From Octopus vulgaris (taxonomy: Eukaryota), in contig OX597830.1 of the NCBI GenBank assembly GCA_951406725.2, positions 372,001-436,000 on the forward strand: a stretch of DNA of 64,000 nucleotides. Direction: 5' to 3'. Shown piece after piece: positions 13,146 through 15,124 of the stretch; within the stretch, counting starts at the first letter, position 1, and each line of letters opens with the position of its first letter. Both the position numbers and the translations under genes were made by a program. The notes under the pieces are model-generated. The model ran no database searches. It was not told the origin of the DNA and was given only the letters and a program-made list of their open reading frames with translations.

Positions 13146-13845
13146 CCTTGCCAATGACACACCGGTCTCACGCCATTTCCGCTCCACCAGTCACTCCTTG
13201 CAAAACCTGTCTGTGTTCGGATTGTCCTTGCACAGAGGCCATCCGGATTCCCTCTTGCGCCGTGAACAGGGATTAATCTTCTCTCTTCGCTCTTTTACGC
13301 CATTTGGTCTCAACTCTCCCCCCTTTTCATCTAACCTCCCCCGACACCTACTTCTCTTCAGTCCTTCATCTTTTCACCCCTACTTTCTTTCCCTCCTCTT
13401 CCCTTCTTTCCCTCTTCTTTCTTCTTTCTTCTTCCCTCTTCACCTTCTCTATTTCTCTCTGCTCCCTCACTCACCTTCTCTCCCCTCCCCTCCTCCTCCC
13501 CTCCCCTCCTCCCCTCCTCCCCTCCCCTCCCCTTCCCCCTCTCACCTCCTTTCACCCCCTCCTCCTCTCCCCCTCTTTCTCCTCCTCTCCTTCCTTCTCC
13601 TTTCCCTCCTCCTCCTCCTCCTCCTCCTCACTCATCCTCATCTCATTTCCCCTACTATCCCTCTAGCGTCTAACGTCTGACCTCTGATCTCTGACTTCTG
13701 CCTGAAATCAGAACGCCGTATTGGATCGTTGGCTCCTACACGCATTTTTTTCTCTCCTTGTTTCTATTCTGTGTATCTTTCTGTCGAAGAGCGTAGGCTC
13801 GAAACGTAAAAGACTTGTTTTATTTCTATTCCTGAGCGCCAGAAT
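13146..13845 (+). mobile_element. Penelope-like (Neptune-type) 3' end: GIY-YIG C-terminus, pyrimidine tract and HHR
   Basis: DTPVSRHFRSTSHSLQNLSVFGL...RREQGLIFSLRSFTPFGLN matches the typical PLE endonuclease tail (PV..HF...H...RE..WI..L....P.GLN). Confidence 0.85.
13776..13813 (+). ncRNA. Minimal type I HHR (A6U variant)
   Basis: TCTTT-CTGTCGA-A-GAGC gtag GCTC-GAAA-CG-TA-AAAGA. Confidence 0.7.
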
Positions 13846-13847
13846 CA

Positions 13848-14392
13848 CCCCAGAGAGCACTCACTAAACGAATTGAAGGCATAGCTGCTCTCGATTATTG
13901 GGACCGCCTTAAAGCCTTGAAACTCTACTCTCTCCAGCGTCGCCGCGAGCGGTACATCATTTGCACGATGTGGAGAATATACCGCCAACTTTGCCCAAAC
14001 GACCTGAACATTAGCTTCAAGGTTCATCCAAGACTGGGACCACGGGCCATACGTCCCCTGCCCAATTCGAGATCACAGCATACATGTACACTGCAACATA
14101 ATTTCTTTTCCTCAACAGGCCCTGCCCTATTTAACATTGTCCCGAAAGAGATCAAAGAAGAAAAGGATCCCATCAACTTTAAACGGAGTCTGGATAGATT
14201 CCTCCAAGGAATACCAGATAAGCCACCCATAATTGGATACAACTCACCCAACAAAAACTCACTAATTGAATGGGCCATAAACAAAACTTGAACAAAACTT
14301 GACTTAAACAGGATTTAGATAATCCTATCAGGTGATGCTATTAAGTTAGACATGGCCTGGACCAATCTTTGGTCGAAACATATCTAAGTTTT
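13848..14392 (+). mobile_element. 5'-truncated CR1/L2-group LINE 3' end
   Basis: YWDRLKALKLYSLQRRRERY...LFNIVPKEIK...FKRSLDRFLQGIPDKP, then a 3' stem-loop GACCA/TGGTC-GAAAC. Confidence 0.85.
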
Positions 14393-14398
14393 ATATAC

Positions 14399-14607: not shown

Positions 14608-14685
<78 letters not shown>

Positions 14686-14686
<1 letters not shown>

Positions 14687-15085
14687 GTTCTCTTTTAGAG
14701 AGACTTAGTAATTTTAATATTTCTATTATTGAAAACAAGTGGATGTATTCCACCGAAACTAGGTAAATAAAACCTTCGAACAGTGATTGTCAGAAGCGAC
14801 ACCTACTGGTATGGCTACGCTGCATTGAAAAGGGGCAATACCCCGAAACGCGTCTGTAGCTGCCGGTCAAGTAGTGTGGAGCGACTGACCTCCCTTGTTC
14901 GAAGGTTATATGGATACAGTTGTGTATCAAATAGCTAACTTAAGGCGATGGCCTCATGGAGCTAATAAGCGGACAGCTTTATTCTTATTTTTATAAGAAT
15001 GCCATATTAGTATGGCGATAACTATTATTTTCCGGGAACGCTGCCGCTGTTCTCTTTTAGAGAGACTTAGTAATTTTAATATTTC

Positions 15086-15091
<6 letters not shown>
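14686..15091 (+). mobile_element. Non-coding 362-nt retrozyme-like unit with 44-bp terminal direct repeat
   Basis: Direct repeat 14686-14729 = 15048-15091; internal HHR; several hairpins; (TA)n flanks. Confidence 0.75.
14819..14860 (+). ncRNA. Type I HHR, U3:A8 variant, with extended stem I
   Basis: GCTGCA-TTGAAAA-GGGG caata CCCC-GAAA-CGCG-TC-TGTAGC; GUC site ending at 14854. Confidence 0.85.

Positions 15092-15124
<33 letters not shown>

What the first reader, a model, noticed from the sequence alone, without database searches (positions are those of the whole stretch)
14686..15091. 362-nt non-coding, terminally redundant HHR unit: candidate cephalopod retrozyme/circRNA
Seen: the first 44 bp recur exactly at the end (period 362), with (TA)n outside both copies, so it is not a simple TSD. 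There is no ORF. A U3:A8 HHR (14819-14860, GUC) sits at the tip of a long interrupted stem (AACCTTCGAACA 14771 / TGTTCGAAGGTT 14896; GTCAG/CTGAC; GGC/GCC leaving a TAC bulge). Loop II CAATA recalls the Schistosoma type I loop that docks on a stem I bulge. The rest forms hairpins (GATACA/TGTATC, ATTCTTAT/ATAAGAAT, GCCATA/TATGGC). A second, degraded HHR-like motif lies at about 14729-14769. Established: metazoan non-LTR retrozymes are monomers of a few hundred nt with type I HHRs that yield circRNAs. Inference: this is a roughly 1.1x reverse transcript of a circular or multimeric RNA.
Basis: partly seen in the sequence, partly recalled or inferred. Interest (0 to 1): 0.85.

Follow-up and report, generated by a model that had tools for sequence, protein, structure and literature searches.

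The report
Young Penelope-mobilised hammerhead retrozyme family
This is one of many hundreds of near-identical copies of a 362-base non-coding repeat with a hammerhead-ribozyme motif, inserted into TA microsatellites with the same end pattern as the genome's protein-coding Penelope-like retrotransposons, which likely copy it, probably from a circular RNA.

Summary
The window copy is 1.12 units of a young family: 892 exact hammerhead-core hits, plus relatives 83-86% alike with compensatory base changes. The 44-bp redundancy is not a fixed feature; it results from 5' truncation. Copies show Penelope-like-element (PLE) anatomy: 230 of 255 arms stop at one of two fixed 3' ends 63 nt apart, mostly in (TA)n; 5' ends are ragged; 87 of 152 loci are head-to-head. 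Where both arms end canonically, they use different ends in 74 of 74 junctions. An intact 781-aa Neptune-type PLE family here follows the same rule (8 of 8) and carries the same U3:A8 core variant, but its pLTR does not align with the unit. One of 82 scanned loci abuts a PLE ORF, mid-domain. Units within an insertion share haplotype, sometimes rare variants, and cross the cleavage site without scars, which fits a circular monomer template; a linear multimer is not excluded. Cleavage, expression and circularity are untested. Verdict: new member of the animal non-LTR retrozymes, with unusually clear genomic evidence of PLE mobilisation. The scan noted a similar tRNA-bearing repeat in another genome.

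The parts
14686..15091 (+). Whole insertion: 1.12 units, single arm, 5'-truncated, ending at fixed end E2
   Evidence: L001
14686..15047 (+). One 362-nt repeat unit (phase set by the truncation point), non-coding, strongly folded
15048..15091 (+). First 44 nt of the next unit; its last base is fixed 3' end E2 (unit position 44)
   Evidence: 130 of 255 arms end at unit 38-49
15022..15028 (+). Fixed 3' end E1 (unit position 343), after two hairpins; same 7-nt motif as at E2; inferred reverse-transcription start
   Evidence: 100 of 255 arms end at unit 335-349; hairpins
15029..15091 (+). 63-nt PLE-type 'tail' between E1 and E2
   Evidence: concept from PMC11167929 and PMC8557442
14811..14866 (+). 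Type I hammerhead motif, U3:A8 core, helix I 6 bp plus bulge and extension, helix II 4 bp, helix III 2 bp within a self-complementary 6-mer; predicted cleavage after 14854
   Evidence: activity untested
14771..14907 (+). Long interrupted stem carrying the hammerhead; its 3' arm is the main 5'-truncation/inversion hotspot
   Evidence: 31 of 147 family-A arm 5' ends at unit 208-225
14695..14753 (+). Block around E2 identical between one A and one B unit that differ about 17% elsewhere; candidate binding site of the mobilising protein (inference)
14666..14685 (.). (TA)n target microsatellite, left part
15092..15119 (.). (TA)n target microsatellite, right part

Best explanation
It is a recently spread, non-coding 362-nt hammerhead-motif repeat that is likely a non-autonomous Penelope-like retroelement (animal non-LTR retrozyme), likely copied into (TA)n by the RT/GIY-YIG protein of a Neptune-type PLE, probably from a circular monomer RNA. 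Shown: high copy number, short head-to-tail arrays, two fixed 3' ends, ragged 5' ends, head-to-head arms, TA targets, conserved fold. Inferred: a tandem copy is transcribed, the hammerheads cut (probably as dimers through the self-complementary helix III), the monomer is ligated, the PLE protein nicks both target strands and primes one cDNA at E1 and the other at E2, each runs round the template for 0.1-5.5 units, and the two are joined head-to-head by microhomology or one is lost. Odds: PLE-mobilised non-autonomous element 0.9; circular monomer as template 0.6; the 781-aa Neptune lineage as the enzyme donor 0.5.
For: 892 exact core matches, 0 for the control; 2195 matches of a tail motif shared by subfamilies. 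152 distinct loci, 255 arms: 230 end at E1 or E2, 211 are followed by TA repeats, 87 loci head-to-head. Of 90 inversion junctions, 74 have both ends canonical and all 74 are E1+E2; 31 of 31 in the sample picked by the core pattern alone; junction overlap mostly 1-6 nt. Three insertions outside TA show 6-13-nt duplications (L077, L092, L188; 9 non-TA loci examined). Intact PLE family: 9 of 10 fetched copies have a 781-aa frame, 95-99.7% alike, RT and GIY-YIG, U3:A8 minimal hammerhead, two ends about 40 nt apart, TA target, E1+E2 in 8 of 8 inverted insertions. A genome-wide U3:A8 pattern gives 3882 hits against 315 control; of the first 100 listed about 60 are this family and 21 that Neptune lineage (counted by eye). 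Template: units in one arm differ at 3.7% of shared polymorphic site comparisons, two arms of one locus at 3.5%, different loci at 22.4%; 8 rare variants in 6 loci occur in every unit, and 2 of 3 further arrays show the same; 105 of 147 arms cross the cleavage site, 36 twice or more, with no indel at unit 165-175 in about 158 segments. Fold: 8 of 74 pairs change on both sides across subfamilies, 0 of 500 shuffles, slid controls 0-3; the helix III 6-mer stays self-complementary through a double change.
Against: No cleavage, expression or circularity data. The unit does not align with the Neptune pLTR (best E 0.29), and other young PLE families exist, so the donor is not pinned. Three haplotypes cover most loci (25, 14 and 10), as master tandem loci would give. 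Nine rare variants sit in only some units and 73 in one unit. 5' ends are only weakly enriched at the cleavage site (6 of 147, p 0.037 uncorrected). A lizard PLE used uncleaved RNA in vitro and showed no strand bias between its two start sites (PMC11167929). The covariation rests on about six related subfamilies and on a structure drawn from the window copy.
Confidence: 0.72

Rival explanations
1. Same non-autonomous PLE-mobilised element, but the template is an uncleaved linear multimer read from a few master tandem arrays; circles, if made, are a by-product.
For: Three dominant haplotypes; seamless read-through of the cleavage site fits this too; weak helix III; PLE hammerheads cleave poorly (PMC4209133) and cleavage was dispensable in vitro (PMC11167929); variants in only some units.
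Against: Rare variants present in all 3-6 units and in both arms need a one-unit bottleneck; among variants seen in 4 or more loci, 145 of 157 non-CpG cases are in all units of the insertion; arrays reach 5.5 units.
Confidence: 0.3
2. These are ordinary pseudo-LTR fragments of an autonomous PLE that is rare, missed or lost from the assembly.
For: Full PLE anatomy; one copy (L089) abuts a PLE ORF in the same orientation; only 152 of perhaps over a thousand loci were read.
Against: Arms continue into more copies of the unit, not into an ORF; 1 of 82 loci scanned for ORFs abuts one, inside the endonuclease domain of a family with an unrelated 3' UTR; 2 of 60 PLE loci hold a unit, both as separate tail-to-tail insertions; the 359-366-nt unit persists through subfamilies 83-86% alike.
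Confidence: 0.06
3. A DNA-level satellite or rolling-circle DNA element spread without an RNA stage; the hammerhead is incidental.
For: Tandem arrays; a few arrays show signs of local duplication (L097).
Against: Fixed 3' ends with ragged 5' ends, strand-specific fold with compensatory changes, arrays short and dispersed over many contigs, same end rule as a coding PLE.
Confidence: 0.03

Closest known systems
Animal non-LTR retrozymes (Cervera & de la Pena 2020, PMC7229834; Li, Clavereau & Pollet 2026 preprint 10.64898/2026.07.22.740005)
   Same: Short tandem non-coding unit (mussel units 350-390 bp), under 45% GC (41%), type I hammerhead with 6-bp helix I, 4-bp helix II and weak palindromic helix III, stable predicted circular fold, co-existing PLEs.
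   Different: U3:A8 core; circRNA not shown here; insertion anatomy (two fixed ends, inverted arms, TA target) is not described in the parts of those papers that I read, where PLE mobilisation is a hypothesis resting on co-occurrence and, in Xenopus, pLTR similarity. No pLTR similarity was found here.
Endonuclease-bearing PLEs, Neptune type, and their 'tail' (PMC8557442; PMC11167929; PMC4209133)
   Same: 5' truncation, partial tandems, inverted 5' arm, tail at one end only, microsatellite bias, two RT start sites, U3-A8 core (reported for Schistosoma Cercyon PLEs).
   Different: No ORF; tail 63 nt rather than 30-40; full-size rather than minimal hammerhead; strict one-E1-plus-one-E2 rule, whereas the lizard PLE showed no strand preference in vitro.
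Non-autonomous Chlamys PLEs such as MRC1 (PMC8557442)
   Same: Non-coding PLE passengers with multicopy head-to-tail insertions.
   Different: Those resemble their autonomous partner at the 3' end and that clade lacks canonical hammerheads; green algae.

Membership tests
Animal non-LTR retrozyme | Short (about 150-450 bp) unit in head-to-tail tandem copies | tested here: met
   39 complete units of 359-366 nt; arms to 2000 nt
Animal non-LTR retrozyme | Type I hammerhead in each unit | tested here: met
   Motif with all core positions (U3:A8 variant), core 97-100% conserved in about 150 segments, partly by selection of the sample; covariation; Rfam does not score it
Animal non-LTR retrozyme | No protein coding, no LTR/PBS/PPT organisation | tested here: met
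   Longest ATG frame 38 aa; no fixed 5' end or LTR pair; PBS/PPT not searched separately
Animal non-LTR retrozyme | Self-cleavage of the RNA | not testable with these tools
   Bench assay needed; 8 of 9 Xenopus dimers did not cleave in the 2026 preprint
Animal non-LTR retrozyme | Accumulates as circular RNA | not testable with these tools
   Only assembled contigs of runs not on record as RNA were offered; genomic pattern fits a one-unit template
Non-autonomous PLE | Two fixed 3' ends separated by a tail, 5' truncation, inverted 5' arm | tested here: met
Non-autonomous PLE | Microsatellite / AT-rich target | tested here: met
   211 of 255 arms followed by TA repeats
Non-autonomous PLE | Sequence similarity to the pLTR of an autonomous partner | tested here: inconclusive
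   No alignment with the 781-aa family junction or 58 of 60 PLE loci; only the U3:A8 core, helix III 6-mer of subfamily B and a hairpin-plus-7-nt end motif are shared; not all PLE families were sampled
pLTR of an autonomous PLE | Copies continue into an RT/GIY-YIG ORF at a shared junction | tested here: not met
   1 of 82 loci, mid-domain and unique
Plant LTR retrozyme | Type III hammerhead in LTRs with 4-bp TSDs | tested here: not met
   Type I motif, tandem units, duplications of 6-13 nt where visible

The most novel reading that the evidence does not exclude
A viroid-sized circular RNA with a U3:A8 hammerhead is being retrotransposed now by rolling-circle target-primed reverse transcription: a Neptune PLE dimer primes the two target strands at two different fixed sites on the same circle, a strict rule (74 of 74, and 8 of 8 for the PLE itself) that would give the missing mechanism for animal retrozymes together with a matched intact enzyme and substrate.
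Probability: 0.35. Interest if true: 0.8.

Novelty: new member of a known kind. Interest (0 to 1): 0.55.

Why it matters
Which enzyme moves animal retrozymes, and whether a circle is the template, are left as hypotheses in the papers read. This family is young (about 98% identity among copies), abundant, and sits beside intact PLE ORFs that leave identical insertion footprints, so both questions become directly testable. The one-E1-plus-one-E2 rule sharpens the known remark that the PLE tail sits at one end only, and says how the two target strands are primed. No paper on an octopus or cephalopod hammerhead retrozyme came up in searches; Repbase/Dfam and the papers' supplements were not seen and may already hold the family, and the host was not identified here.

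Tried and rejected
Rfam: no hammerhead hit. Second hammerhead at 14729-14769: rejected. L089 as the true parent junction: rejected, it cuts the endonuclease domain and that family's 3' UTR is unrelated and CA-rich. L066 and L149: separate tail-to-tail insertions in one microsatellite stretch. Widely spaced same-strand hits (L061, L202, L203, L204) are separate or duplicated copies by their unit maps; L061 was also scanned for ORFs, the other three were not. Peak of 5' ends at the cleavage site: weak. Imprecise template jumping at the cleavage site: disfavoured, no indels there, though indels are rare outside homopolymers anyway. Expression: no RNA holder listed; four runs only guessed to be RNA were laid as contigs and cover parts of the unit, which is no evidence on expression or circularity. 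The empty site in other samples was not examined, so polymorphism of this insertion stays open. Host taxon not tested; the 2.8-Gb genome fits an octopus only by recall. The Schistosoma loop II/bulge contact is recalled, not tested; subfamilies D/E have a 6-nt loop II.

Full report
Observation. The 44-nt repeat at 14686 and 15048 is exact, period 362, inside (TA)n. The unit is non-coding and folds far better than shuffles (z -7.18). The hammerhead is as described: helix I 6 bp, core UUGAAAA (U3:A8), helix II 4 bp, GAAA, helix III 2 bp, C17 at 14854. Rfam does not score it. The second hammerhead-like motif is not conserved and cannot form helix I.

Family. The own genome (2.8 Gb, 227 contigs) holds 892 exact copies of the 30-nt core pattern and 2195 of a 28-nt motif near the end; controls 0. 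The 40 best BLAST candidates are 96-100% identical in their full-length matches and lie on many contigs. Related subfamilies have units of 359-366 nt, 83-86% alike. On 16 aligned units, 8 of 74 predicted pairs change on both sides (0 of 500 shuffles; slid controls 0-3), including helix I, helix II and the stem below. These rows are related and the structure came from the window copy, so this is support, not proof. The helix III 6-mer changes at two positions between A and B and stays self-complementary, which fits dimer cleavage as described in PMC4209133 (passages). Twenty runs under six organism codes hold most of its words; four were laid.

Anatomy of insertions. I mapped 152 distinct loci (duplicate fetches dropped by hand) from four samples: top BLAST hits for A (27) and B (28), the first core-pattern hits on contigs 1-2 (57), and 40 picked from the end-motif list. 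Of 255 arms, 100 end at unit position 335-349 (E1), 130 at 38-49 (E2), 25 elsewhere; 211 are followed by TA repeats; 87 loci are head-to-head. Both ends carry the same 7-nt motif whose last bases are in phase with (TA)n. 5' ends are scattered, with a hotspot at the 3' arm of the long stem (31 of 147). Of 90 inversion junctions, 16 have a non-canonical end; the other 74 all pair an E1 arm with an E2 arm, 31 of 31 in the sample chosen by the core alone; two loci hold duplicated insertions that count twice. The window copy is a single E2 arm cut after 406 nt; 6 of 255 arms are like it. These are the PLE hallmarks in PMC8557442 (passages) and PMC11167929 (parts 1-2 of 4): two RT start sites bounding a tail, partial tandems, inverted 5' arm, microsatellite bias.

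Is it just a pLTR? Among 82 loci scanned for long frames, one (L089) abuts a PLE ORF in the same orientation, inside its endonuclease domain, and that family has an unrelated 3' UTR. The B and end-motif loci were checked only by reading 45-80 nt of flank (part was cut). Of 60 PLE endonuclease loci, two hold a unit, tail-to-tail.

Candidate enzyme. A GIY-YIG search found a young family with a 781-aa frame, RT plus the Cys linker and GIY-YIG of Neptune type (clade named from the linker motif in PMC8557442, no tree built). It has a U3:A8 minimal hammerhead, two ends about 40 nt apart, TA targets, partial tandems that run into the ORF, and E1+E2 in 8 of 8 inverted insertions. Its E2 follows a small hairpin and contains the same 7-nt motif as both ends of the unit. 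In a genome-wide U3:A8 pattern (3882 hits, 315 control) the first 100 are about 60 this family, 21 that lineage, 19 other (by eye). But its junction region does not align with the unit (best E 0.29), and two other abundant PLE families exist. Donor odds about even.

Template. In 89 family-A loci, units of one arm differ at 77 of 2097 shared-polymorphic-site comparisons, two arms of one locus at 51 of 1456, different loci at 22.4%. Rare substitutions in loci with three or more units: 73 in one unit, 9 in some, 8 in all; two of three further arrays, picked because their core variant recurred, show all-unit variants. 105 of 147 arms read through the cleavage site with no indel at 165-175. All-unit rare variants need a one-unit bottleneck, which a circle provides; homogeneous master arrays and later local duplication can mimic part of this, and three haplotypes dominate. 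I put the circle at 0.6.

Comparison. It meets the sequence-level features of animal non-LTR retrozymes in PMC7229834 (passages and parts 2-4 of 6) and the 2026 preprint (parts 1-3 of 5); cleavage and circRNA are untested. Those texts propose PLE mobilisation without the insertion evidence seen here. Supplements were not seen. Five searches showed no cephalopod case. An earlier scan note describes a tRNA-bearing repeat with like behaviour in another genome; I reached my reading before seeing it and did not test it.

Verdict. A real, young, non-autonomous PLE-type retrozyme; new member of a known kind; interest 0.55, raised by the strict end rule and by a matched enzyme candidate.

Noticed in passing
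window 13773-13820 (+): Another minimal hammerhead-like motif (core CUGUCGA, A6 replaced) at the end of a CT-rich stretch; a similar intact-core motif at about 41372 (-). Probably ends of other PLE families.
   Followed up: no
window 38038 (-) and 38490 (+): Head-to-head pair of identical C3:G8 hammerhead motifs with a longer helix II and III, about 450 nt apart: an inverted PLE-type insertion of a different family.
   Followed up: no
window 13836-14393 (+): 3' end of a LINE-like element (151-aa frame, no Pfam hit) that ends in a short hairpin right at the (TA)n block; the same end lies beside L088.
   Followed up: partly
L161-L170, L267-L296, L327-L336: Young intact Neptune-type PLE: 634 exact hits of its hammerhead motif, 4.7-kb partial tandems, two 3' ends, ORF start about 30 nt after the tail.
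   Followed up: partly
L243-L266: A second very young, C-rich Neptune-type family with 884-1008-aa frames, CA-rich 3' UTR and about 6.2-kb tandems.
   Followed up: partly
L089:1853: A unit's 5' end joined directly inside the endonuclease domain of that C-rich PLE: deletion at insertion or a template switch.
   Followed up: partly
L097: Two adjacent units of one arm share three variants that the third unit lacks, a sign of local duplication after insertion.
   Followed up: partly
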